From an uncultured Gammaproteobacteria bacterium (lineage in GTDB: Bacteria; Patescibacteriota; Patescibacteriia; Patescibacteriales; CAYTAV01), in assembly GCA_964435875.1 (NCBI GenBank), contig CAYTAV010000001.1, positions 2,318 through 66,317 on the forward strand: a stretch of DNA of 64,000 nt, given 5' to 3'. This document shows, piece by piece, positions 45,084 to 54,713 of the stretch; position 1 is the first letter of the stretch, and the number at the start of each line of letters is the position of its first letter. The translations under genes were made by a program, and so were the position numbers. The notes below the pieces were generated by a model. It saw nothing but the letters and a program-made list of their open reading frames with translations. It was not told where the DNA came from and did no database searches.

Positions 45084-45112
45084 AATAACGCCCTTACAGG
45101 GCGTTATTTTTT
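45084..45112. terminator. Bidirectional terminator overlapping the sigma-factor stop codon
   Basis: AATAACGCCCT-tac-AGGGCGTTATT followed by TTTTT. Confidence 0.65.
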
Positions 45113-45621
45113 TCCTTTTTTTCCTTATCGATGCGTGTTTTCAGCATCTTTAATCCGCGGTGGATTAATACATATATATTAGAGGAGGATTTGCCGGTTA
45201 GTGTCTTAATCTCTTTAATGTCAAGCTCGTCGATGAAACGCAAAATAATGACGTCTCTGTAAGTTTTTGGAATGGAGGAGAGGTTTCTTCTGACCACCTC
45301 CATTTCGATATCAGCATCGATTGCAGCATGTATACCGTTCTGCTTATGATCAGGAAGCGCAATCGCTTCATCAAGCGCTAGCGACGGTTTCTTCGATCGG
45401 TAATAATCAATTACAAGGTTGTTTGCGACTTTATAGATAAAACTCTTTATATTGTCTATCCGTCCGCCTTCACCAATGTAGCGCCAGGCCTTCATGAACG
45501 TTTCGGACGTAAGGTCCTCTGCAAGAGCCTCATCACTTACGCGAAAATAGATATGGCGTAAAATATCCGCAGCGCTCTTGTCATAAAACTCAAGAAACTC
45601 ATTTTCGATTCCCTTGTTCAT
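45094..45621 (-). CDS. ECF-type RNA polymerase sigma-70 family factor
   Basis: Region 2 (DLTSETF.KAW....... SF.Y..A.N..IDYYR) and region 4 (R.V..LR....L...EI...TG.S..N..V..HRGL..L). No adjacent anti-sigma gene was seen. Confidence 0.8.
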   Translation of the reverse strand: MNKGIENEFLEFYDKSAADILRHIYFRVSDEALAEDLTSETFMKAWRYIGEGGRIDNIKSFIYKVANNLVIDYYRSKKPSLALDEAIALPDHKQNGIHAAIDADIEMEVVRRNLSSIPKTYRDVIILRFIDELDIKEIKTLTGKSSSNIYVLIHRGLKMLKTRIDKEKKEKNNAL

Positions 45622-46110: not shown

Positions 46111-47778
46111 ATGAAGAACACTATAAAGAGCATCGCCACCCTTTTGGTCGTGACCGTCATGATTGTATTTGTCGCAGGACAGGTCAAGGCCGAATACCTG
46201 GCGGCGAACGTTGAGACCGGATATGAATCCGAAAATACGGTCAAAGCGGAATCTGTAAGCGAACACCTGATGGTCAACGGCAACCACGAGATGCTTTCCA
46301 ATGAAGCAGACGTCGAAGGAGAAACCGGAGATAACGATAGCGACTATAATACAGGCAAAGGCCTGGTCGACGGCGGTGACGTTGTGATCGTCGGAGGTTT
46401 TACTAGCGAAGTAAACGTCAATATGACCGAGCAGGCCAGCACCGAGCTGCATGACTTTACGGCAATGAATGACACGACCGGCGCTTATTCGGACAACGAC
46501 GCGCTTGCCTCGCTTTTCACGGCGGTTTTCGGCGCAAACGAGAACCTGGCTTTCGTCGCTAATAAGGCGAAGATCGAAGGCGAGTCAGGTGATAACGAGA
46601 CCAGCTACAATACAGGTGACGGCGAGGTCAAATCCGGCGACGCAGAGATCGACGCTAGCGTGATGAACACGGTCAACGGCAACCTGTTGATCATCGGCAA
46701 TGATATCGATGAAGAAAGCGAATCCCTGCTCGAATCGAATTCCTCCAACTCCAATACCGGAGCGAATTCGAAAAATAAGGCGAAGGTCCGCATCAACCAC
46801 ATGGCTACAGCCGAGAATATCAATATGGCCATGCTGATGAATTATCTGAAGACCGAAGCAGAGACCGGCGATAATGAATCGAGCTATAACACCGGTTCGG
46901 CCAAGATCGATACCGGCGATGCAAACACCAAGACTACGGTCAAGAACGACGTCAATTACAACCAGACCATGATCAACATGGATCTCGGAGACTCTAATCT
47001 CGAGGCTTCAAACGACACGACCGGATATGAATCCGATAACAAGGCCAAGGTCGAATTAAATAGTGTGGTCGGCGTAATGAATGCCAACCAGGCCATGGTC
47101 ATGAATAAGGTTAAGAACGAAGCAGAGACCGGCGATAACGAAGCCAGCTATAATACCGGTTCGGCAACGATCAAGTCTGGCGATGCGGACAGCCAAGTCA
47201 GCATCGACAATGGCGATACGCTCAACAAGAACGAGACCGAAGTCAATATCGATCTCGGCAACATCAGCATGACAGCATCCAACGCCACTACCGGAGCAAA
47301 TTCAACGAATAAGGCCAAGGCTGAATTCGGCAGTGCGGTTGCGGTCGGCAATACTAACGGTTTGATGCTCAGCAACGACGTCAAGTCCGAAGCAGAAACC
47401 GGCGATAACGAGGCGAGCTACAATACCGGGACCGGGAACATCACTTCCGGCGACGCCACCTCGAACGTGACTGTAAAGAACGACGCCAACTACAATTCGA
47501 CGACGGTAAACGTCGCTCCGACCGCTAATGTCCAAGCGACCAACGATACGACCGGAGCGAATTCGACCAACAAGGCCGAAGCATCATCCGCGTCTGTCGT
47601 CTCGGTTGCTAACCAAAATTGCGGCGTGATCTCGAATGAAGTCAAGTCGGAATCAAATACCGGCGGCAACTCGACGAGTTACAACACCGGAGCCGGCACG
47701 GTTAAATCCGGCGACGCAAGCATTTCCTTCGGCGTGAACAACACGACCAACGGGAACAGCACGACCATCGGCAACTAG
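46111..47778 (+). CDS. Secreted Asn/Thr/Gly-rich repeat protein (six ~90-aa repeats), a beta-solenoid or amyloid-like fibre subunit candidate
   Basis: Signal peptide ending VKA. Recurring N.TTGA.S.NKAK... and E(A)ETGDNE.SYNTG...I.(S/T)GDA...V..N motifs, with (E/S/N)(T/S)G(D/G)N at aa 71, 159, 251, 339, 429 and 516. Confidence 0.75.
   Translation: MKNTIKSIATLLVVTVMIVFVAGQVKAEYLAANVETGYESENTVKAESVSEHLMVNGNHEMLSNEADVEGETGDNDSDYNTGKGLVDGGDVVIVGGFTSEVNVNMTEQASTELHDFTAMNDTTGAYSDNDALASLFTAVFGANENLAFVANKAKIEGESGDNETSYNTGDGEVKSGDAEIDASVMNTVNGNLLIIGNDIDEESESLLESNSSNSNTGANSKNKAKVRINHMATAENINMAMLMNYLKTEAETGDNESSYNTGSAKIDTGDANTKTTVKNDVNYNQTMINMDLGDSNLEASNDTTGYESDNKAKVELNSVVGVMNANQAMVMNKVKNEAETGDNEASYNTGSATIKSGDADSQVSIDNGDTLNKNETEVNIDLGNISMTASNATTGANSTNKAKAEFGSAVAVGNTNGLMLSNDVKSEAETGDNEASYNTGTGNITSGDATSNVTVKNDANYNSTTVNVAPTANVQATNDTTGANSTNKAEASSASVVSVANQNCGVISNEVKSESNTGGNSTSYNTGAGTVKSGDASISFGVNNTTNGNSTTIGN
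46210..47775 (+). repeat. Six imperfect in-frame coding repeats, period ~87-92 codons
   Basis: Spacing of the ETGDN-type motif in the translation. Confidence 0.8.
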
Positions 47779-47797
47779 GCCAGGGCGTCAAGGCGCA

Positions 47798-47855
47798 CCC
47801 GAGGTTCATCCTCGGGCTTCGCCGCCGCCGTACAAGCCTTGACTTGTACGGCGGC
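47798..47855 (+). promoter_or_regulatory. Two strong GC-rich hairpins between the two repeat-protein genes
   Basis: CCCGAGG-ttcat-CCTCGGG (47798-47816) and GCCGCCGTACAAG-ccttga-CTTGTACGGCGGC (47824-47855). No T-tract follows. Confidence 0.5.
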
Positions 47856-47890
47856 AGAGGAGTAATATCGAATATTAACCGTAACACCAT

Positions 47891-50722
47891 ATGTCTTACC
47901 TTAAAAGCCTTAAAACACTGAAAAAAGGAGCGGCAGGAGTCATGCTGGCGATGCTCGTTGCCTGGACGATCGCCCCGATACTTAAAGCCGAAGAGGGCGC
48001 AGTTACAGGCAGTACGGCAAGCGGAACAGCAGCGGAAACCGCCTCAACGACCGAAAGTGCGGTCGCGCCGGCAGGCGAAACTTCCGCGACGGATAATTCC
48101 GAAGCCGGTATCGGGGCCGGCAACCTGGCTACCGGCGCAGATTCAAGCAATTCAGCATCGACCGAAATCAGCAATACGCAATCCGTAATTAATATTAATA
48201 CGGCAACGACCACTAACGATTCATACTTGAAAGCCGACACGGGCAGGAATACGGCAAGCTATAATACGGGGTCGGGCATCATTACGACAGAAAAAGCCAG
48301 GGGCAAGGGCGAGATCGTCAATACGATCAACCTTAATATGGTCATCCCGGAGATTGCAGGAATCGGTCCGATTTCGGCAGAAAACGGAAATACTGGCGCC
48401 AGCTCTGATAATATCGCCAAGGTCAACGTCAACAACCAGCTCACCGTACATAATTCCAACAGCGCCAATACGACGAACCTGGTCGAAGCAGAAGTAAATT
48501 CAGGCAATAACGCGGCCGAGGGCAATACCGGCCACGGCATGATCCTCACCGGATCTGCAAGCCTAGGGCTAAATTTCATTACGATGTCGAACGCTAATTT
48601 CGTCGGTTCGCAGCGCTTCTATGCCAATTGGCAGAACATTTATGATAACCATACGGGCGATATCGATATTTCGACGGAAGCGGCCGTCAGCGCTTCCCCC
48701 CTGTCCGGACTGCTGATCGACGCTTCGAACAGCGATACCGGGGCTGGTTCGAACAATCAGGCGATTGTCGATGTAAACGACCAGACGAGCATCATCAACC
48801 AGAATACCGGCAAGATCAGGAACGAGATCAGCGCCAAGGTCACAACCGGCAAGAACAAGGCCAGCAAGAATACCGGAACAGGATCGATCGCCACCGGCCA
48901 GGCGAACTCGTCAGTCAACGTGATGAATTTCCTGAATTCGAACATAGTATCCTCGAACTGGTGGCTCAAGACCTTGAACGTCTTCGGCAGCTGGAAAGGA
49001 AATATGGTATTGCCGATGATGCCGAGGCCGAACCTGACGGTTACCCAGCCGGAACTTGAGGCAAGCGCCAATGCCACCGGCGCAGGTTCTGAAAATGCGG
49101 CTGAAGCGAATATCAACACTTCGGTAGCTATAGCAAACACAAACAATGCCGTGATAACCAACAGCGTCGATATCAAGACCAACTCGGGAGACAACAAGAC
49201 CTCGTTTAACGGAGGCACCGGAATCGTAAAGTTCGGCGATGCAGACGCCGAGACTAACGAGCTTAATGTTGCGAATGTGAACGTAACGGGCGATTCATGG
49301 TGGATGGTCGTCGTTAACAAGTTCGGCAAATGGCTGGGAACGACTATCGGGTCGCCTGTCGAGACCACGGTTAGCGCGACTGCGGCTACCACAGTCCTGA
49401 CGCCCAACGGTTCGGGCATCCGGGTGAATAACAATTCGACAGGACCTGAATCGAATAACTTCGCAGGAGCGAACGTTACCCACAGCACCGAAATAACCAA
49501 TGCGAACGAAGCTGATATCATGAACAAGCTCAAGATCGAGGCGATTACCGGCGAGAACGAAACACAGTTCAATTCCGGTCACGGATATATCGAAGCCGGC
49601 AGCATCGATGCGGTCAACAATCTCGTAAATTTTGCGAATGCCAATGTCAATGTCGGCAATTGGCTGGTTACCGTGATTAACGTTTTCGGAGACTGGGAGG
49701 GTAACGTCGTGTTCAGGACCGCGACCCAATCCGAGATCGACGCCATAAATTCTAACAGCCAGCTGATGGTCAACGGTGGATCGTCGTCAAATGCAGGTAC
49801 CGGAGCAGGTTCCTCGAACAGTTCCGGTAGCAGCTCTTCCAGTACCGGAACAACATCGAATACTAACGCATCCGATACGGCAAACAACACTTCAGCTTCG
49901 ACGCTGACGGGAGAGAATTCCGCGAGCTATAATACCGGGTCAGGGATCGTTACGGCCGGCGGCGCTGATTCCAACACGACCATCCAGAACCAGGTAAATA
50001 CGAATGTTACCGGCGCATCATCAGGCGGCGGCAATGCCACATCTACGAATTCAGGAACCGGTGCCGGGTCCAATAATTCGGCGGTTACTAATAATTCCAC
50101 TGATACGAACGTAGCAAATAGCAATACAGCCCAAGTCACGAATTCCGTACAAGCCAGCAACAACACGGGGCAGAATTCGGCCAATTATAATACAGGCAAC
50201 GGTGCGGTCGATACCGGATGGGCGACGACTTTCGCGGGCCTTTATAACCAGGTTAACGAAAACCAGACCAACGCAGGCCAGCTGCTTTCCGACCTTAACA
50301 GCATAACTGATACGACCGGCAACGACATCGGTTCGCAAACGCAAGGGAACGGCTCTGGCAACCAGAATTCGGATACAACGCCCTCCGGAGGCGGCTCATC
50401 TGCCGGATCTACGTCTTCGGGGGGAGCGGGCGGCGGCCAACCCGCTCTGACGCAGACAACCGCGCCTAGCGGACAACAGACAGTCCAGAGCGCATATTAC
50501 CCCCCGGCTCCCGTCACATACGGCCAAGGCCGAACGGTCGATTCGGCGAGCGCAGAGGACGCTAAGAACGACCTTAATTCGGATGGTTATATCAACGACC
50601 TGGACTTCTCAATCTTGATGGCGAACTGGAAAAAACCGGTCCACTCGCTTAAAGCGGATATCAATAGCGACGGATCAGTCGATGAATCCGACCTGCGGAT
50701 CCTGCTCGCTAGATGGTATTGA
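47891..50722 (+). CDS. Large secreted repeat protein (same repeat class plus Trp-containing inserts), low-complexity linker and C-terminal dockerin
   Basis: Signal peptide. Repeats N.TGA.S.N.A.V.V.N ... TG.N.A..NTG.G.I.TG.A with inserts WWLKTLNVFGSWKGNMV, WWMVVVNKFGKWLG and WLVTVINVFGDWEGNVV. Ser/Gly/Asn/Thr linker. C-terminal DLNSDGYINDLD...DINSDGSVDESD. Confidence 0.75.
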   Translation: MSYLKSLKTLKKGAAGVMLAMLVAWTIAPILKAEEGAVTGSTASGTAAETASTTESAVAPAGETSATDNSEAGIGAGNLATGADSSNSASTEISNTQSVININTATTTNDSYLKADTGRNTASYNTGSGIITTEKARGKGEIVNTINLNMVIPEIAGIGPISAENGNTGASSDNIAKVNVNNQLTVHNSNSANTTNLVEAEVNSGNNAAEGNTGHGMILTGSASLGLNFITMSNANFVGSQRFYANWQNIYDNHTGDIDISTEAAVSASPLSGLLIDASNSDTGAGSNNQAIVDVNDQTSIINQNTGKIRNEISAKVTTGKNKASKNTGTGSIATGQANSSVNVMNFLNSNIVSSNWWLKTLNVFGSWKGNMVLPMMPRPNLTVTQPELEASANATGAGSENAAEANINTSVAIANTNNAVITNSVDIKTNSGDNKTSFNGGTGIVKFGDADAETNELNVANVNVTGDSWWMVVVNKFGKWLGTTIGSPVETTVSATAATTVLTPNGSGIRVNNNSTGPESNNFAGANVTHSTEITNANEADIMNKLKIEAITGENETQFNSGHGYIEAGSIDAVNNLVNFANANVNVGNWLVTVINVFGDWEGNVVFRTATQSEIDAINSNSQLMVNGGSSSNAGTGAGSSNSSGSSSSSTGTTSNTNASDTANNTSASTLTGENSASYNTGSGIVTAGGADSNTTIQNQVNTNVTGASSGGGNATSTNSGTGAGSNNSAVTNNSTDTNVANSNTAQVTNSVQASNNTGQNSANYNTGNGAVDTGWATTFAGLYNQVNENQTNAGQLLSDLNSITDTTGNDIGSQTQGNGSGNQNSDTTPSGGGSSAGSTSSGGAGGGQPALTQTTAPSGQQTVQSAYYPPAPVTYGQGRTVDSASAEDAKNDLNSDGYINDLDFSILMANWKKPVHSLKADINSDGSVDESDLRILLARWY
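50567..50719 (+). other. Dockerin type I-like module (two EF-hand-like segments)
   Basis: D-L-N-S-D-G-Y-I-N-D-L-D-FSILMANW and D-I-N-S-D-G-S-V-D-E-S-D-LRILLARW, matching the duplicated DxNxDGxIxxxD calcium loops followed by helices. Confidence 0.7.
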
Positions 50723-50755
50723 AGATGTTAAGCTGATACTCATAGAAATATTGAT

Positions 50756-51763
50756 ATGAAAAAGACATTAATCGTGTTATTTATCGGCATTAGTCTGGCT
50801 TTTTCAAAACCAGAAGCCAAAGCTGCGGGGCTGGCCGGCTATATTATATCTCCAGCGGCGCAGGAAGCGGCCAAAGGGGAGGTAGTGCAGATCCAGGTCG
50901 AGATCGACCCTAAGGGAGAAATCTTCGATACCGCCCGAGTAAAGCTGGAATATACGCCCGGGATGTTAAACCTCGAGGGCGTAGCGAAGAATACAAAATT
51001 TTCCCAGACAGCCGGAGGCAACTCCTTTTCTGATGATAGCGGCACTTTTTCTTACGGTTCAGGCCTGCCTGGCGGCACATCGGAAAAAATCAGGTTCTTA
51101 ACTCTGACTTTCCGGACTGCCAGGGAGGGAGAAGCGAAAGTTTATCTGCGCGATGATTCATTGATCGCAAGCAACGGCATCAACGTGAGCGACTGCCGTA
51201 GCAATATGGCAACGATCAGGATCGGCAAAGCCAAGGCTAAAGTGCTGGGAGTCAAGCTCTATCCGGACGGAACGCTCTTGCGCAATTCTAAGACGAGGGA
51301 AATTTTCTACATTACGGGCGGCGCCAAGAAAAAGGTCGCAAGCCTCAAGGAGCTGGCCGCATACGGCAAGAAGACGATCATCAACGTTTCGCCCGAGGCC
51401 CTGGACGGTTATCTTCCATATGCAAACGGAACGCTCTTGCGCAATTCTAAGACGAGGGAAATTTTCTACATTACGGGCGGCGCCAAGAAAAAGGTCGCAA
51501 GCCTCAAGGAGCTGGCCGCATACGGCAAGAAGACGATCATCAACGTTTCGCCCGAGGTCCTTTCGCAATTCCCCGTTTTCAGCACTACCGGCAGCCAGCT
51601 AGCCGAAGGCGCTCTGGTCAGGGATAAAACCAGCAAGAGGATTTATGTGGTCAGCGGCGGTAAGAAATCACTAATCGCTACGCTGGCAGACCTATCGAAA
51701 TACCGAGGCAGGCAGATTATCGATATCGATCCAGGCTTGTTGTCTCAGTATCCGACCTCATGA
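50756..51763 (+). CDS. Secreted cohesin-like domain protein with three C-terminal ~53-aa repeats (putative wall-binding)
   Basis: Signal peptide. KGEVVQIQVEIDPKGEIFDTARVKLEYTPGMLNLEGV resembles the cohesin N-terminal strands. The repeats are GTLLRNSKTREIFYITGGAKKKVASLKELAAYGKKTIINVSPE.L x2 plus a diverged third copy. Confidence 0.6.
   Translation: MKKTLIVLFIGISLAFSKPEAKAAGLAGYIISPAAQEAAKGEVVQIQVEIDPKGEIFDTARVKLEYTPGMLNLEGVAKNTKFSQTAGGNSFSDDSGTFSYGSGLPGGTSEKIRFLTLTFRTAREGEAKVYLRDDSLIASNGINVSDCRSNMATIRIGKAKAKVLGVKLYPDGTLLRNSKTREIFYITGGAKKKVASLKELAAYGKKTIINVSPEALDGYLPYANGTLLRNSKTREIFYITGGAKKKVASLKELAAYGKKTIINVSPEVLSQFPVFSTTGSQLAEGALVRDKTSKRIYVVSGGKKSLIATLADLSKYRGRQIIDIDPGLLSQYPTS
50825..51193 (+). 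other. Cohesin-like module
   Basis: The pattern G(D/E).V.I.V.I......I......L.Y.P..L....V is followed by beta-rich segments ending ..FRT..EG.A.V.L. Confidence 0.5.
51267..51557 (+). repeat. Tandem duplication: two 100%-identical 132-bp copies (51267-51398 and 51426-51557), period 159 bp
   Basis: Direct comparison of the nucleotide strings. The first mismatch is at 51399 versus 51558. Confidence 0.9.
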
Positions 51764-51846: not shown

Positions 51847-51968
51847 CGTTAATTCCGGATTTTGACCATGTTTATGGATCGGTTTTGACTGAATGAGGCG
51901 TTGTGATATAATATGCAGTCAATGCTATCCAACAGGCGGATGAAGCGAAGCTGGCTTGGCAAGCTGTT

Positions 51969-54713
51969 ATGGAACAATACATCAAATATACATCGAAATA
52001 TCATGCAATCCTGCTCATGTCCGTGGCAATCGCGGTTTTTTACCTTGTCAGCCATTCCAGCTACCTCCTTTTCCATTTTTTAGTCGAAATCATAGGAGTC
52101 GTCGTCGCAGTTGCGGCGTTTTTTATAGTATGGAATTCTTGGCATTACATCGAAAATAACTATTTTCTCCTGGTTGGCGTTTCGTTCGTTTTTACGAGCT
52201 TCATCGACCTATTGCATCTGCTCGCCTATCGGGGGGTGAACCTCGTCGGTAATCCCGGAGACGCTGATCTGCCGATGCAGCTTTGGGTCGCGGCGCGAAC
52301 AGTATCCTCTCTTTCTTTTGCCGTCGCGCCCTACCTGGTCGGCAGGACTGCATACAAGACCAGGCATTTGTTTGTAATATATTTTATTGCCACGACAGGG
52401 CTGGTTGCTTCGATTTTTTATTTCAGGAACTTCCCACTAGCTTATACCGAAGACGGGGGGTTGACCGGCTTCAAGATCGCGATGGAGGGAGTGATCACGT
52501 TGCTTTATGCCGGCGGGGTACTAGGCTTGTATCTCAAGCGCATGCATTTCGACTCGAGAGTGCGTAATCTTATCATTTCAGCGCTGGTTATGCAGATAAC
52601 CAGGGAGATCGCCTTCACCGTCTATGCTGAACCCGGCGACCGGATCAACTTTGCAGGGCATATCCTGCATCTGGTTTCTATCTACCTGCTTTATTTAGGA
52701 ATAGTCGAAGCCTCGCTCATGAAGCCGTATCGGCTGATGTTTAAAAGCTTAAAAGACAGCGAAACCGCCCTAAAAGAAAGCGAAGCCCGTTACCGCTCTC
52801 TGGTCGAAGCTTCTCCTGATGCCATCTTGGTGCATACGCTGGGCACGGTAATGTATGCCAACCCAGCATCTGCCGAACTGTTGGGATACAAAAGTCCGGA
52901 TGTCCTGCTCGGGAAAAATATCTTTGAGATTTTCCATACAGATTCGCATGAAGCGGTCGAAGCCAGAATCGCTTCGGTTAGGAAGGGCGCGAATGAGACT
53001 CCTCTTGCCGAACTTAATGTTGTCCGCAGCGACGGTAAAAAGATCCCGGTCGAAGTAACCGGAAGATCGATCAAATACAAGAACAAACCGTCATTACAGA
53101 CCCTTTTACGTGATATCAGCGATCAGAAGAAGCGCGATTATGAACGCGACGAGCTGACAGCCCAGCTCGCACAGAAGAGCGACAGCATTGAGTTGCTTGC
53201 GGACCGGTTGAAAAAAGAACGCGATATGCTTAAAGTAATAATGGAAAATTCGGGATCGATGCTCGTTTATCTTGACCCCCGCTTCGATTTAATTAATGCG
53301 AATACGACGTTCCTGAGATATAGCGGCTTGACGACGTACGAGATAATCGGCAAGAATTTTTTCGAACTGTTCCCCGACGGGGAAATCAAGGAAATTTTTG
53401 AGCATGTCAGAGCCGCCGGCAAACCGAGGGAATTCAAGGCCCAACTCCTGTCGTTCCCGCGCATGCCAGGCGTCAAAAAGACTTATGCGGATTGGAGCTT
53501 GATACCAATTACTAACATATTCGGCGCCGTAGAAGGCCTTGTCCTTTCCTTGCAGGACGTTACCGAGAGAATCTCGAACGAGATCGAACTTAGGAGCCAT
53601 GCTGATCAACTGGAAAGGCTTTCGGTCGAACTTAGCAAGTTCCGCATGGCTGTCGATAACGCGGCAGACCACGTCGTAATTACCGACAAGGAAGGCAAGA
53701 TAATCTACGCTAATGACGCAGCCGAAAGGATTACCGGTTATGCGAAGCATGAAATGATAGGACGCTCTCCGGCTCTCTGGGGCAATAGAACCAGGATGTC
53801 TGACGGCCAGGGTACTTATACCGAGGCGTCGGTCTGGCAGGATCTTGGGCAGTCCGAGACTTTTGAAGGCGAGGTCTTAAATATCAGGAAGGATGGGACA
53901 AATTATATTGCTGATCTGCATATCGCTCCTGTTTATTCAGAAGAGGGCGAAACAGTCTTTTTTATCGCGATCGAGCGGGACGTGACCAAGATCAAAGAAA
54001 TCGACAGGGCTAAGGACGAATTCATCTCTTTCGCATCCCATCAGTTACGGACTCCGCTGACTAGTGTCAGCCTTTCTGCTGAACTGCTTCTTCGCGGGAT
54101 CATGGGCAATGTCGAAGATAAGCAGAAGAAATACTTGCTGGAGATTTACAAATCGACGCATCATATGGCCGAGCTGGTCAATACGCTGTTGAACGTATCG
54201 CGAATCGAAATGGGAACATTTGTTATAAAAAGAGAAGAGCTCGATTTGACCGAAAAGGTCGGGCGCATCCTTGAGGATATGTATTTACAAATCCGCCATA
54301 AGCGGCTAATATTGGATACGCAATATCAAGATAGCATGCCGACCGTCTATTTCGATAAGAACATACTGCGTATCGCGCTTGAGAATCTGGTATCCAACGC
54401 TATCCGCTATACTCCGGAAGGAGGGATCATCAGGGTTGAAATCGCACAAAGCGGCGTTGAGACGATCATTTCTGTGAAAGATTCTGGCTGCGGGATTCCG
54501 GAAGAAGCCCGTCCGTACATATTCCTTAAGTCTTACAGGGCTTCGAATGCGCGCAATCTTAGCGCTGACGGATTGGGCCTCGGGCTGTATATCGCGAAAT
54601 GGGTGATTGAGAAAGCAGGAGGCCGCATCTGGTTCGATTCAATCGAGGGTTCAGGATCCATCTTCCATATCGCGATACCCGCGTCAATCGAAGATATTAA
54701 CGATGCCGAATGA
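51969..54713 (+). CDS. Sensor histidine kinase (MASE3-like membrane domain, multiple PAS, HisKA, HATPase)
   Basis: About 7-8 TM helices with an H..VE......A.F...W start. Several PAS units. H-box SFASHQLRTPLTSV, N-box LVSNAIRYT, and G-boxes DSGCGI and GLGLGL. Confidence 0.85.
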   Translation: MEQYIKYTSKYHAILLMSVAIAVFYLVSHSSYLLFHFLVEIIGVVVAVAAFFIVWNSWHYIENNYFLLVGVSFVFTSFIDLLHLLAYRGVNLVGNPGDADLPMQLWVAARTVSSLSFAVAPYLVGRTAYKTRHLFVIYFIATTGLVASIFYFRNFPLAYTEDGGLTGFKIAMEGVITLLYAGGVLGLYLKRMHFDSRVRNLIISALVMQITREIAFTVYAEPGDRINFAGHILHLVSIYLLYLGIVEASLMKPYRLMFKSLKDSETALKESEARYRSLVEASPDAILVHTLGTVMYANPASAELLGYKSPDVLLGKNIFEIFHTDSHEAVEARIASVRKGANETPLAELNVVRSDGKKIPVEVTGRSIKYKNKPSLQTLLRDISDQKKRDYERDELTAQLAQKSDSIELLADRLKKERDMLKVIMENSGSMLVYLDPRFDLINANTTFLRYSGLTTYEIIGKNFFELFPDGEIKEIFEHVRAAGKPREFKAQLLSFPRMPGVKKTYADWSLIPITNIFGAVEGLVLSLQDVTERISNEIELRSHADQLERLSVELSKFRMAVDNAADHVVITDKEGKIIYANDAAERITGYAKHEMIGRSPALWGNRTRMSDGQGTYTEASVWQDLGQSETFEGEVLNIRKDGTNYIADLHIAPVYSEEGETVFFIAIERDVTKIKEIDRAKDEFISFASHQLRTPLTSVSLSAELLLRGIMGNVEDKQKKYLLEIYKSTHHMAELVNTLLNVSRIEMGTFVIKREELDLTEKVGRILEDMYLQIRHKRLILDTQYQDSMPTVYFDKNILRIALENLVSNAIRYTPEGGIIRVEIAQSGVETIISVKDSGCGIPEEARPYIFLKSYRASNARNLSADGLGLGLYIAKWVIEKAGGRIWFDSIEGSGSIFHIAIPASIEDINDAE

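What the first reader, a model, noticed from the sequence alone, without database searches (positions are those of the whole stretch)
50567..51193. Adjacent dockerin and cohesin-like modules in a non-cellulolytic, reduced-genome context
The 943-aa protein ends with two 22-residue EF-hand-like segments, DLNSDGYINDLDFSILMANW and DINSDGSVDESDLRILLARW. This is the duplicated dockerin signature.

The gene starting 34 nt downstream opens with a signal peptide and then a segment resembling cohesin strands 1-3 (GEVVQIQVEIDPKGEIFDTARVKLEYTPGMLNLEGV).

Cohesin-dockerin pairs are known outside cellulosomes. A cis-encoded pair that attaches a fibre-like repeat protein to a putative wall anchor would be a neat self-contained assembly device.
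Basis: partly seen in the sequence, partly recalled or inferred. Interest (0 to 1): 0.6.

Follow-up and report, generated by a model that had tools for sequence, protein, structure and literature searches.

The report
Dockerin-cohesin anchor for a surface fibre
An ultra-small (Patescibacteria) bacterium encodes a long beta-rich surface protein ending in a dockerin "plug", followed directly by a secreted protein carrying a divergent cohesin "socket" and envelope-anchoring repeats; the pairing recurs across the whole order, so it is probably how these cells fasten surface fibres to themselves.

Summary
The 943-aa protein (47891-50722) ends in a dockerin that passes Pfam's own cut-off.

The next gene (50756-51763) encodes a signal peptide, a ~135-aa domain and three ~53-aa repeats. 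The Pfam cohesin model misses that domain. It is nevertheless a cohesin:
- 79 of 118 homologues hit Pfam Cohesin.
- Its family profile hits this genome's two Pfam-positive cohesins.
- The AlphaFold model (pLDDT 95.5) returns cohesins as its first 27 PDB matches.

The pairing is not chance. In 201 genomes of the same order, 84 of 130 dockerins have a cohesin within 4 kb downstream on the same strand, against 1 upstream.

The specific cassette is a ~555-aa repeat protein, a ~950-1100-aa repeat protein with dockerin, and a cohesin with an anchor. It recurs in 10 of 10 contexts examined.

Two orthologues lack the dockerin. They carry the anchor repeats fused to their own C-terminus, and no cohesin gene follows them.

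Binding itself is untested. This is a non-cellulosomal, one-to-one variant of single-cohesin anchoring proteins. I found no description of it in the searchable literature, although this scan has noted it repeatedly in Patescibacteria.

The parts
46111..47778 (+). Gene 1: 555-aa secreted Asn/Thr/Gly-rich repeat protein without a dockerin, a paralogue of gene 2
   Evidence: ORF. BLASTP against gene 2 gives E 1e-34 with the same repeat grammar. No Pfam or NCBIfam hit. A ~550-aa orthologue precedes the dockerin protein in every cassette examined.
47891..50722 (+). Gene 2: 943-aa secreted repeat protein (the cargo, or fibre) made of seven all-beta units, a disordered linker and a C-terminal dockerin
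   Evidence: ORF. AlphaFold with 40 sequences gives pLDDT 70 and seven units, each with a ~31-residue strand run. Foldseek found no significant PDB match for the body. About 28 orthologues of 860-1215 aa are all annotated as hypothetical proteins of Parcubacteria.
50279..50560 (+). Low-complexity Gly/Ser/Thr/Gln/Pro linker (aa 797-890) between the repeat body and the dockerin
   Evidence: pLDDT below 50 over aa 797-890. Orthologues have Gly-rich tracts at the same place.
50567..50719 (+). Dockerin module: two Ca-loop-plus-helix segments at aa 894-915 and 923-943
   Evidence: Pfam PF00404 29.6 bits against a cut-off of 22.9 and 31.9 bits in six frames. Predicted helices at aa 903-911 and 932-942. 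Local Foldseek match to the X-dockerin chain 4u3s_B, probability 0.85 but E 6.7, rmsd 1.9 A over 47 columns. 24 of 29 orthologues end in the same module by motif.
50723..50755 (+). 33-nt spacer between gene 2 and gene 3, with no terminator-like site
   Evidence: Sequence. The terminator scan finds nothing on the + strand between the two genes.
50756..50824 (+). Signal peptide of gene 3 (aa 1-23, ending ...AKA|AG)
   Evidence: Read from the sequence. Homologues have the same N-terminal hydrophobic leader. No prediction tool was run.
50825..51226 (+). Divergent cohesin domain (aa 24-157)
   Evidence: No Pfam hit on the protein itself. 233 homologues in the representative library, and 79 of 118 of them hit PF00963. 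The family profile hits this genome's Pfam-positive cohesins at 5e-18 and 1e-16. AlphaFold pLDDT 95.5 and pTM 0.85. The first 27 Foldseek PDB matches are all cohesins, best E 1e-7, with TM-scores of 0.54-0.76.
51257..51760 (+). Three ~53-aa repeats (aa 168-335), the putative envelope or cell-wall anchoring module
   Evidence: Repeats. Copies 1 and 2 are 97% identical in DNA (51260-51402 and 51419-51561). No Pfam family. In orthologous cassettes this position is occupied by a linker and a C-terminal transmembrane helix. The same repeat ends many other secreted Patescibacteria proteins. It is fused directly to the fibre protein in P0170 and P0172.
45094..45621 (-). Context: ECF-type sigma factor, divergent from the cassette
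   Evidence: Pfam Sigma70_r2 and Sigma70_r4_2.
51969..54713 (+). Context: MASE3-PAS-HisKA-HATPase sensor kinase with its own promoter-like site. Two-component genes flank the cassette in several relatives.
   Evidence: Pfam domains. Promoter-like site at 51885-51912. Response-regulator or histidine-kinase genes lie next to the cassette in L048, L074, L075, L077, L078 and L080.

Best explanation
Genes 46111-51763 form a conserved surface-display cassette of Parcubacteria-type Patescibacteria.

**Proposed mechanism**
1. Gene 2 encodes a long, secreted, all-beta repeat protein. A flexible linker at its C-terminus ends in a Ca2+-type dockerin.
2. Gene 3, 33 nt downstream and probably co-transcribed, encodes a secreted protein. 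It has one divergent cohesin, followed by three ~53-aa repeats that hold it on the cell envelope.
3. The dockerin plugs non-covalently into the neighbouring cohesin, so the repeat protein is tethered to the cell surface.
4. Gene 1 has the same repeats but no dockerin. It probably co-assembles with gene 2.

**Shown here**
- The identity of the dockerin and the fold and family of the cohesin.
- The directional, order-wide gene pairing.
- Conservation of the three-gene cassette.
- Replacement of dockerin plus cohesin by a direct fibre-anchor fusion in two orthologues.

**Inferred**
- Physical, Ca2+-dependent binding of this dockerin to this cohesin.
- That the repeats bind the wall or envelope.
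- The role of gene 1.
For: **Modules**
- Dockerin: PF00404 is above its cut-off, and both Ca-loop-plus-helix segments are present.
- Cohesin, sequence: the best non-self hits in the own proteome are the two Pfam-positive cohesins. 79 of 118 homologues hit PF00963. The A2 profile scores 5e-18 and 1e-16 on those paralogues.
- Cohesin, structure: 9 of 11 weak PDB sequence hits are cellulosomal cohesins or scaffoldins. The AlphaFold model has pLDDT 95.5. The first 27 Foldseek matches are cohesins, including OlpA, OlpC and the Archaeoglobus non-cellulosomal cohesin.

**Gene linkage**
- In 201 genomes of the order, 84 of 130 dockerin hits have a cohesin-profile hit less than 4 kb downstream on the same strand, in 58 genomes.
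- The controls are 1 hit upstream on the same strand and 6 on the opposite strand.
- My rough estimate of the chance rate is below 1% per dockerin.
- This genome's second dockerin protein (contig C5) is also followed by a protein with a weak N-terminal cohesin-profile hit, E about 1e-3.

**The orthologous cassette**
- 10 of 10 contexts with a dockerin have the cohesin gene immediately downstream, with profile E-values from 1e-46 to 2e-60 for the nine relatives.
- The anchor after the cohesin is a C-terminal transmembrane helix in most cassettes. It is the ~53-aa repeats here and in the closest relative.

**Natural fusion**
- P0170 and P0172 are orthologues of the fibre protein.
- They have no dockerin and end in two copies of the same anchor repeat (E 5e-16 and 1.4e-13).
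- Their loci have no cohesin in any of the six frames.

**Co-inheritance**
- The cohesin tree follows the class of the upstream dockerin protein: 6 label changes against 20.3 in shuffles, and 0 of 200 shuffles were as low.
Against: - The curated Pfam cohesin model does not recognise this particular domain.
- No binding was computed or measured.
- The genome holds two further Pfam-positive cohesins (contigs C6 and C95) without an adjacent dockerin. Cross-binding, or a different true partner, is therefore possible.
- 46 of 130 dockerins in the order had no listed cohesin downstream. Part of this comes from contig ends and from a cohesin list truncated at 150 rows.
- The ~53-aa repeat has no characterised relative. 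Its role as a wall anchor rests on position and on the fusions, not on a known binding activity.
- The body of the fibre protein is modelled only at pLDDT 70 and has no PDB analogue. "Fibre" is therefore a description, not a demonstrated assembly.
Confidence: 0.8

Rival explanations
1. The modules are a real dockerin and a real cohesin, but they are not each other's partners. The dockerin would bind one of the Pfam-positive cohesins elsewhere in the genome (C6 or C95), or bind promiscuously. The neighbouring cohesin would capture something else, possibly a host-cell protein.
For: - Two orphan cohesins exist, and no dockerin gene lies upstream of the C6 cohesin.
- The neighbouring cohesin is the most divergent from the Pfam model.
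- Cross-specificity among cohesin-dockerin pairs is known in cellulosomal systems (general knowledge).
Against: - Dockerin-to-cohesin adjacency is strongly directional: 84 downstream against 1 upstream.
- 10 of 10 orthologous cassettes keep the pair.
- Dockerin and cohesin are lost together in the two fusion variants.
- Cohesin lineages track the class of the neighbouring dockerin protein.
Confidence: 0.1
2. There is no cohesin-dockerin binding at all. The cohesin-like beta-sandwich would be a structural or glycan-binding surface module, and the dockerin a Ca2+-stabilised terminal module. Adjacency would then only reflect co-expression of envelope proteins.
For: - There is no Pfam cohesin hit on this protein.
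- Beta-sandwiches of this type also occur as non-cohesin modules: lower Foldseek hits include CLIPPER, YcnI and a pilin domain.
- No interaction data exist.
Against: - The first 27 structural matches are cohesins.
- The family is homologous to Pfam-positive cohesins at E about 1e-17.
- Simple co-expression does not explain the fixed gene order.
- It also does not explain why a covalent fibre-anchor fusion removes both modules at once.
Confidence: 0.07
3. The near-identical tandem repeat, and perhaps the gene arrangement itself, is an assembly artefact of a metagenome-assembled genome.
For: - Repeat copies 1 and 2 are 97% identical over 143 nt.
- The assembly has 112 contigs.
Against: - The same three-gene order is found in independent assemblies from NCBI, ENA, JGI and Logan.
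- Relatives carry 2-4 copies of the repeat after the cohesin.
- At most the copy number of the repeat is in doubt.
Confidence: 0.03

Closest known systems
Single-cohesin cell-surface anchoring proteins of Clostridium thermocellum (OlpA, OlpC; complexes PDB 3ul4 and 4dh2)
   Same: - One type-I-like cohesin is joined to a cell-envelope retention module and captures a single dockerin-bearing protein at the cell surface.
- These cohesins are among the top structural matches (ranks 11, 16 and 18).
   Different: - The anchor is not an SLH domain: it is an uncharacterised ~53-aa repeat, or a C-terminal transmembrane helix in orthologues.
- The cargo is a non-enzymatic beta-repeat protein, not a glycoside hydrolase.
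- The partner genes are adjacent and one-to-one.
- The organism is a 1.2-Mb Patescibacteria genome with only two dockerins.
- The Pfam cohesin model does not detect the domain.
Non-cellulosomal cohesin-dockerin modules of archaea (Archaeoglobus fulgidus cohesin, PDB 2xdh; ANME archaea, PMC9012536)
   Same: - Cohesin and dockerin occur in organisms that do not degrade cellulose and lack large scaffoldins.
- 2xdh is the second-best structural match (E 3e-7, TM 0.69-0.73).
- The ANME study also proposes a role in extracellular assembly.
   Different: - Here the pair is split over two adjacent genes in a fixed order and is conserved across a bacterial order.
- A specific cargo family is attached.
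- Natural fusion variants bypass the pair.
Cohesin and dockerin-like modules of Clostridium perfringens glycoside hydrolases (PDB 2jh2, 2vo8, 2w1n)
   Same: - Single cohesin modules are used for non-cellulosomal protein-protein assembly outside the cell.
- They are structural matches at E about 1e-5.
   Different: - Those modules join secreted enzymes to each other rather than to an envelope anchor.
- Their gene context and cargo are different.
Essential dockerin-domain envelope protein of Saccharibacteria (SEML1_0315; Wang et al., Cell 2023, PMC10633639)
   Same: A dockerin-bearing envelope protein in a Patescibacteria genome, thought to act at the cell surface.
   Different: - That paper does not mention cohesin at all and speculates on glycan targeting.
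- Here a cognate cohesin anchor is identified next door.
- I did not test whether SEML1_0315 has such a neighbour.

Membership tests
Dockerin (Pfam PF00404, type I) | Profile HMM score above the curated gathering threshold | tested here: met
   29.6 bits against 22.9, E 7.9e-7, aa 893-938. 31.9 bits in the six-frame genome search.
Dockerin (Pfam PF00404, type I) | Duplicated ~22-residue segment, each with a Ca2+ loop (D-x-N-x-D-G...D at positions 1, 3, 5, 9 and 12) followed by a helix | tested here: met
   The segments are DLNSDGYINDLD+FSILMANW and DINSDGSVDESD+LRILLARW. Predicted helices at aa 903-911 and 932-942. Local structural match to dockerin chain 4u3s_B, probability 0.85 but E 6.7.
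Dockerin (Pfam PF00404, type I) | Ca2+-dependent binding to a cohesin | not testable with these tools
   No complex prediction or experiment was possible. The claim is inferred from gene linkage.
Cohesin (Pfam PF00963) | Profile HMM score above the curated gathering threshold | tested here: not met
   No PF00963 hit at E<=1 on the 335-aa protein. The six-frame genome search with PF00963 also misses this locus.
Cohesin (Pfam PF00963) | Sequence homology to recognised cohesins | tested here: met
   - phmmer against the own proteome: the best non-self hits are the two Pfam-positive cohesins, E 1e-4 and 2e-3.
- 79 of 118 homologues hit PF00963, best 1e-25.
- The family profile A2 hits those paralogues at 5e-18 and 1e-16.
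- The orthologues P0004, L077_258 and L078_276 carry precomputed PF00963 hits.
Cohesin (Pfam PF00963) | Flattened nine-stranded beta-sandwich (jelly-roll) fold | tested here: met
   The AlphaFold model has pLDDT 95.5 and pTM 0.85, and is all-beta. The Foldseek PDB matches at ranks 1-27 are all cohesins, E from 1e-7 to 2e-5, TM-scores 0.54-0.76.
Cohesin (Pfam PF00963) | Binds a dockerin | not testable with these tools
   Inferred only.
Cellulosome (scaffoldin-based multi-enzyme complex) | Scaffoldin with several cohesins, and dockerins borne by carbohydrate-active enzymes | tested here: not met
   The anchor has a single cohesin. The whole genome has only two dockerin proteins, and neither has a glycoside-hydrolase domain.
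SLH- or sortase-anchored anchoring scaffoldins | SLH domain or LPXTG sorting signal after the cohesin | tested here: not met
   No SLH or other Pfam hit in the C-terminal half. The sequence ends ...LLSQYPTS with no LPXTG motif. The anchor is an uncharacterised repeat.

The most novel reading that the evidence does not exclude
The 555-aa and 943-aa proteins may be the subunits of an undescribed class of beta-rich surface fibre or surface layer in Parcubacteria. The dockerin-bearing protein would be the base subunit, plugged into a cohesin socket, and the dockerin-less paralogue would be the bulk subunit.

The cassette would then be one of at least three classes of a general one-plug-one-socket system. 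Patescibacteria would use this system, instead of sortase or SLH anchoring, to mount appendages used for contact with host cells. Neighbouring ECF-sigma or two-component regulators would control it.
Probability: 0.3. Interest if true: 0.75.

Novelty: new variant of a known kind. Interest (0 to 1): 0.55.

Why it matters
How candidate-phyla-radiation bacteria build their surface and hold on to host cells is largely unknown. Most of their envelope proteins are annotated only as hypothetical.

- **Testable parts list.** This locus supplies a plug (dockerin), a socket (a cohesin that curated models miss), an anchor (a new ~53-aa repeat or a transmembrane helix) and a cargo (a new beta-repeat protein family).
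- **A natural control.** Two orthologues replace the non-covalent joint with a covalent fusion.
- **Different logic from the cellulosome.** In this order, cohesin-dockerin pairing follows a one-to-one, gene-adjacent rule rather than one scaffoldin serving many enzymes.
- **Practical uses.** The divergent cohesin family (233 representative clusters) could improve domain models. Small orthogonal cohesin-dockerin pairs are useful connectors for protein engineering.

Tried and rejected
**Searches that gave nothing**
- Pfam and NCBIfam on the three proteins gave only the dockerin. The SpoU_sub_bind, ETF, PORR and IPPK hits on the repeat region are below their cut-offs, and I treat them as spurious.
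- Single-sequence phmmer of the 335-aa protein against PDB sequences found nothing.
- The word-indexed homologue search found only two weak relatives, which match the C-terminal repeats. The exhaustive representative search was needed to find the family.
- The search for related loci with the cohesin alignments A2 and A3 failed because no stretch was conserved enough. I used the genome search instead.
- Foldseek of the whole 943-aa model against the PDB gave nothing significant (best E 0.38), apart from a local dockerin match. The fold of the repeat body stays unassigned.
- The ~509-aa protein on contig C26 that shares the anchor repeat has no Pfam hit and no PDB relative, so it gives no functional handle on the repeat.
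- An exact-match scan of genome contigs to name the organism found nothing, because own-genome records are withheld.
- Four literature searches for cohesin or dockerin in CPR, Patescibacteria or Parcubacteria found no description of such cassettes. Peer et al. 2009 is not held.

**Ideas tested and dropped**
- A dockerin gene upstream of the orphan C6 cohesin: none in the 360 nt before the contig end.
- P0166 and P0178 as orthologues that lack a dockerin: they are a split gene (the dockerin sits in the next ORF, and a cohesin follows) and a gene cut at a contig end.

**Not done**
- A read-through dockerin-linker-cohesin single chain for AlphaFold. Genes 2 and 3 are in the same frame, so this is feasible.

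Full report
**1. What is in the sequence**

Three co-directional ORFs fill window 46111-51763.
- Gene 1 is 46111-47778 and encodes 555 aa.
- Gene 2 is 47891-50722 and encodes 943 aa.
- Gene 3 is 50756-51763 and encodes 335 aa.

They are aa 894-915 (DLNSDGYINDLDFSILMANWKK) and aa 923-943 (DINSDGSVDESDLRILLARWY).

Gene 3 starts 33 nt after the stop codon of gene 2. No terminator-like site lies between them. A strong promoter-like site appears only after gene 3, at 51885-51912, in front of a sensor-kinase gene.

The window belongs to a 1.17-Mb assembly of 112 contigs that is about 90% complete. Its relatives have genomes of 0.6-1.8 Mb. Orthologues of gene 2 carry NCBI names such as Candidatus Staskawiczbacteria and Parcubacteria group. 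The reduced-genome context is therefore real.

**2. The dockerin**

Pfam Dockerin_1 scores 29.6 bits against a cut-off of 22.9 (E 7.9e-7, aa 893-938). The six-frame genome search gives 31.9 bits.

Both segments have the Ca2+-loop pattern D-x-N-x-D-G...D followed by a helix. AlphaFold places helices at aa 903-911 and 932-942. The only probable local PDB match of the whole model is an X-dockerin chain (4u3s_B, probability 0.85, rmsd 1.9 A over 47 columns), although its E-value is 6.7.

The dockerin is confirmed.

**3. The cohesin**

The curated Pfam model PF00963 does not hit gene 3 at E<=1. The six-frame PF00963 search of the genome also misses this locus, while finding cohesins on contigs C95 and C6. 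Single-sequence search against PDB sequences is empty.

Four other lines of evidence show that this is a sensitivity problem.

(a) phmmer of aa 24-170 against all ORFs of the own genome returns, as best non-self hits, exactly the two Pfam-positive cohesin proteins (E 1e-4 and 2e-3).

(b) An exhaustive search of 1.8 billion representatives finds 233 homologues. Of the top 118, 79 hit PF00963 at E<=0.01, the best at 1e-25.

(c) A 32-sequence family profile (A2) hits the two Pfam-positive paralogues at 5e-18 and 1e-16. Against PDB sequences, 9 of its 11 weak hits are cellulosomal cohesins or scaffoldins.

(d) AlphaFold with that alignment gives an all-beta domain with pLDDT 95.5 and pTM 0.85. Its first 27 Foldseek PDB matches are all cohesins, with E from 1e-7 to 2e-5 and TM-scores of 0.54-0.76. 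They include C. cellulolyticum CipC (1g1k), the non-cellulosomal Archaeoglobus cohesin (2xdh), and the single-cohesin anchors OlpA and OlpC (3ul4, 4dh2).

I therefore call aa 24-157 a divergent cohesin.

**4. The rest of gene 3**

A signal peptide (aa 1-23, read by eye) precedes the cohesin. Three ~53-aa repeats follow it (aa 168-335). Copies 1 and 2 are 97% identical at the DNA level.

The repeat has no Pfam family. It occurs at the C-terminal end of many other secreted proteins of the order, including a near-universal ~490-aa family and proteins of 1300-2200 aa. It also occurs together with Ig-like surface domains (Big_2, DUF5011, Fn3_assoc) in other Patescibacteria proteins.

**5. Is the adjacency meaningful?**

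I searched 201 genomes of the same order with the cohesin profile and with Pfam Dockerin_1.
- 84 of 130 dockerin hits have a cohesin hit less than 4 kb downstream on the same strand, in 58 genomes.
- Only 1 has a cohesin upstream on the same strand, and 6 have one on the opposite strand.
- With two or three of each module per ~1-Mb genome, I estimate the chance rate at well under 1% per dockerin.
- The count of 84 is a lower bound, because the cohesin list was cut at 150 rows.

Parsing 36 fetched loci plus the window shows recurrent cassette classes.
- **Class A:** a ~600-aa dockerin protein, a ~150-aa gene, then a ~590-aa protein with an N-terminal cohesin.
- **Class B:** a ~425-aa dockerin protein, a ~350-aa weak cohesin with a C-terminal transmembrane helix, then a ~585-aa cohesin protein.
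- **Class C (this window):** a ~555-aa repeat protein, a ~950-1100-aa repeat protein with dockerin, then a cohesin with an anchor.
- **Others:** giant dockerin proteins of 878-3280 aa, each directly followed by a ~600-aa cohesin protein.

The second dockerin protein of this genome (contig C5, 425 aa) is also followed by a protein with a weak N-terminal cohesin-profile hit, E about 1e-3.

A maximum-likelihood tree of the cohesin domains follows these classes. Class A forms a clade with support 100/96. Class C groups with two small-cassette cohesins at 99/97. The class labels need 6 changes on the tree against 20.3 in shuffles (0 of 200 shuffles were as low). Each cohesin lineage has therefore been inherited together with its neighbouring dockerin protein.

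**6. The orthologous cassette**

For class C, I examined every context I could fetch.
- The contexts are the window, G023, two Staskawiczbacteria genomes, and six metagenome or MAG contigs.
- All 10 contexts in which the fibre protein has a dockerin have the cohesin gene immediately downstream. Profile E-values for the nine relatives run from 1e-46 to 2e-60.
- After the cohesin, most carry a low-complexity linker and a C-terminal transmembrane helix. One is a longer ~590-aa protein with no terminal helix detected.
- The window and its closest relative (P0004, 350 aa) carry the ~53-aa repeats instead.

Because the repeats occupy the same position as a membrane anchor, I infer that they are an envelope anchor.

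**7. A natural fusion experiment**

By motif, 24 of 29 orthologues of gene 2 end in a dockerin. The five exceptions break down as follows.
- One is a split gene whose next ORF carries the dockerin, and a cohesin follows it.
- One is cut at a contig end, and one is a 548-aa fragment.
- The remaining two, P0170 (1215 aa) and P0172 (1163 aa), have no dockerin. They end in an extra domain plus two copies of the same ~53-aa repeat that forms the tail of gene 3 (phmmer 5e-16 and 1.4e-13).
- The loci of those two keep the ~550-aa upstream gene. They have no co-directional downstream gene and no cohesin in any of the six frames.

So where the fibre carries the anchor covalently, the dockerin and the cohesin gene are both absent. 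This is the strongest indirect evidence I have that dockerin plus cohesin serve to join the fibre to the anchor.

**8. The cargo**

Genes 1 and 2 are paralogues (E 1e-34). Both are built from Asn/Thr/Gly/Ser-rich units with a conserved ...TG.N.ASYNTG.G.I.TGDA... core.

AlphaFold on the full 943-aa protein with 40 sequences gives pLDDT 70 and pTM 0.59. The model has these features:
- an N-terminal helix (signal or anchor);
- seven all-beta units, each with a ~31-residue strand run, whose cores have 10-residue-block pLDDT of about 85-94;
- a disordered linker (aa 797-890);
- the dockerin.

No PDB structure matches the body significantly. All family members are annotated as hypothetical. "Fibre-like" is plausible but not shown.

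**9. Comparison with what is known**

Functionally, the closest analogues are the single-cohesin anchoring proteins of cellulosomal clostridia (OlpA and OlpC). These have one cohesin plus a wall-binding module and capture one dockerin protein.

The differences are:
- no SLH domain or sortase signal;
- an uncharacterised repeat or a transmembrane helix as the anchor;
- a non-enzymatic cargo;
- strict gene adjacency;
- a Patescibacteria host with only two dockerins.

Non-cellulosomal cohesin-dockerin modules are known in Archaeoglobus and ANME archaea (PMC9012536) and in Clostridium perfringens. A dockerin-domain envelope protein is essential in a Saccharibacterium (PMC10633639).

Four full-text searches found no paper describing cohesin-dockerin cassettes in CPR, Patescibacteria or Parcubacteria.

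Earlier notes of this scan report similar adjacent pairs in many other Patescibacteria genomes. I treat those notes as leads that agree with my census, not as independent evidence.

**10. Verdict**

Physical binding and the wall-binding activity of the repeats remain inferred.

This is a new variant of a known kind: cohesin-dockerin anchoring in a one-to-one, gene-adjacent, non-cellulosomal form, with a new cargo family and a new anchor module. My confidence in the anchoring model is 0.8, and I score interest at 0.55.

Noticed in passing
Order-wide; example loci L042-L045 and L054-L071: At least two further conserved dockerin-to-cohesin cassette classes occur in the same order, often both in one genome. 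Class A is a ~600-aa dockerin protein, a ~150-aa gene and a ~590-aa cohesin protein. Class B is a ~425-aa dockerin protein, a ~350-aa weak cohesin with a transmembrane helix, and a ~585-aa cohesin protein. Giant dockerin proteins (878, 2391 and 3280 aa) are likewise followed directly by a ~600-aa cohesin protein.
   Followed up: partly
Own genome, contig C5:4349-8005 (locus L047, 1349-5006, minus strand): The genome's second dockerin protein is 425 aa, with Cys-rich N-terminal repeats. It is immediately followed by a 774-aa protein that has a weak N-terminal cohesin-profile hit (E about 1e-3) and a Big_13 domain. This looks like a second, more divergent pair.
   Followed up: partly
Own genome, contig C6:37468-38400 (-) and contig C95:26-2365 (+): Two Pfam-positive cohesin proteins have no adjacent dockerin. 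The C6 protein is a signal peptide, a cohesin and two copies of a different ~45-aa repeat (GRILLQVERNGEAWYV...), so its architecture parallels gene 3 with another putative anchor module. The C95 protein is cut at the contig start.
   Followed up: partly
window 51260-51402 and 51419-51561: A near-identical (97%) 143-nt tandem duplication forms anchor repeats 1 and 2 of gene 3, while repeat 3 is diverged. It is either a recent duplication or an assembly effect.
   Followed up: partly
L048:8955-9875, L052:7060-7995, L076-L080; own genome contig C19:13117-16273: A fourth gene of 306-351 aa (signal peptide plus C-terminal transmembrane helix) follows the cohesin gene in 7 class C cassettes. In L050, a ~590-aa cohesin protein may be a fusion of the cohesin and this fourth gene, which I did not test. 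The gene has only a faint hit to WxLIP_PGBD (E 0.086). It is absent from this window, but paralogues lie on contig C19 (phmmer 1e-22 and 8e-15).
   Followed up: partly
window 51969-54713 (+) and 45094-45621 (-); L048, L074, L075, L077, L078, L080: Regulatory genes recur beside the cassette. In the window these are a MASE3-PAS sensor kinase downstream and an ECF-type sigma factor divergently upstream. In six relatives they are response regulators and/or PAS histidine kinases.
   Followed up: no
L080:4001-7281: In one relative the fibre gene is split. A 915-aa ORF lacks the dockerin, and the next 157-aa ORF carries it (Pfam weak hit; sequence ...GDLNGDGKVDDLDFSILMGAW...). This is probably a frameshift or an assembly error.
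   Followed up: yes
Own genome, contig C26:8166-9695 (+): A 509-aa protein carries the same ~53-aa repeat after an uncharacterised N-terminal domain. It belongs to a ~490-aa family present in nearly every genome of the order. It has no Pfam hit and no PDB relative.
   Followed up: partly
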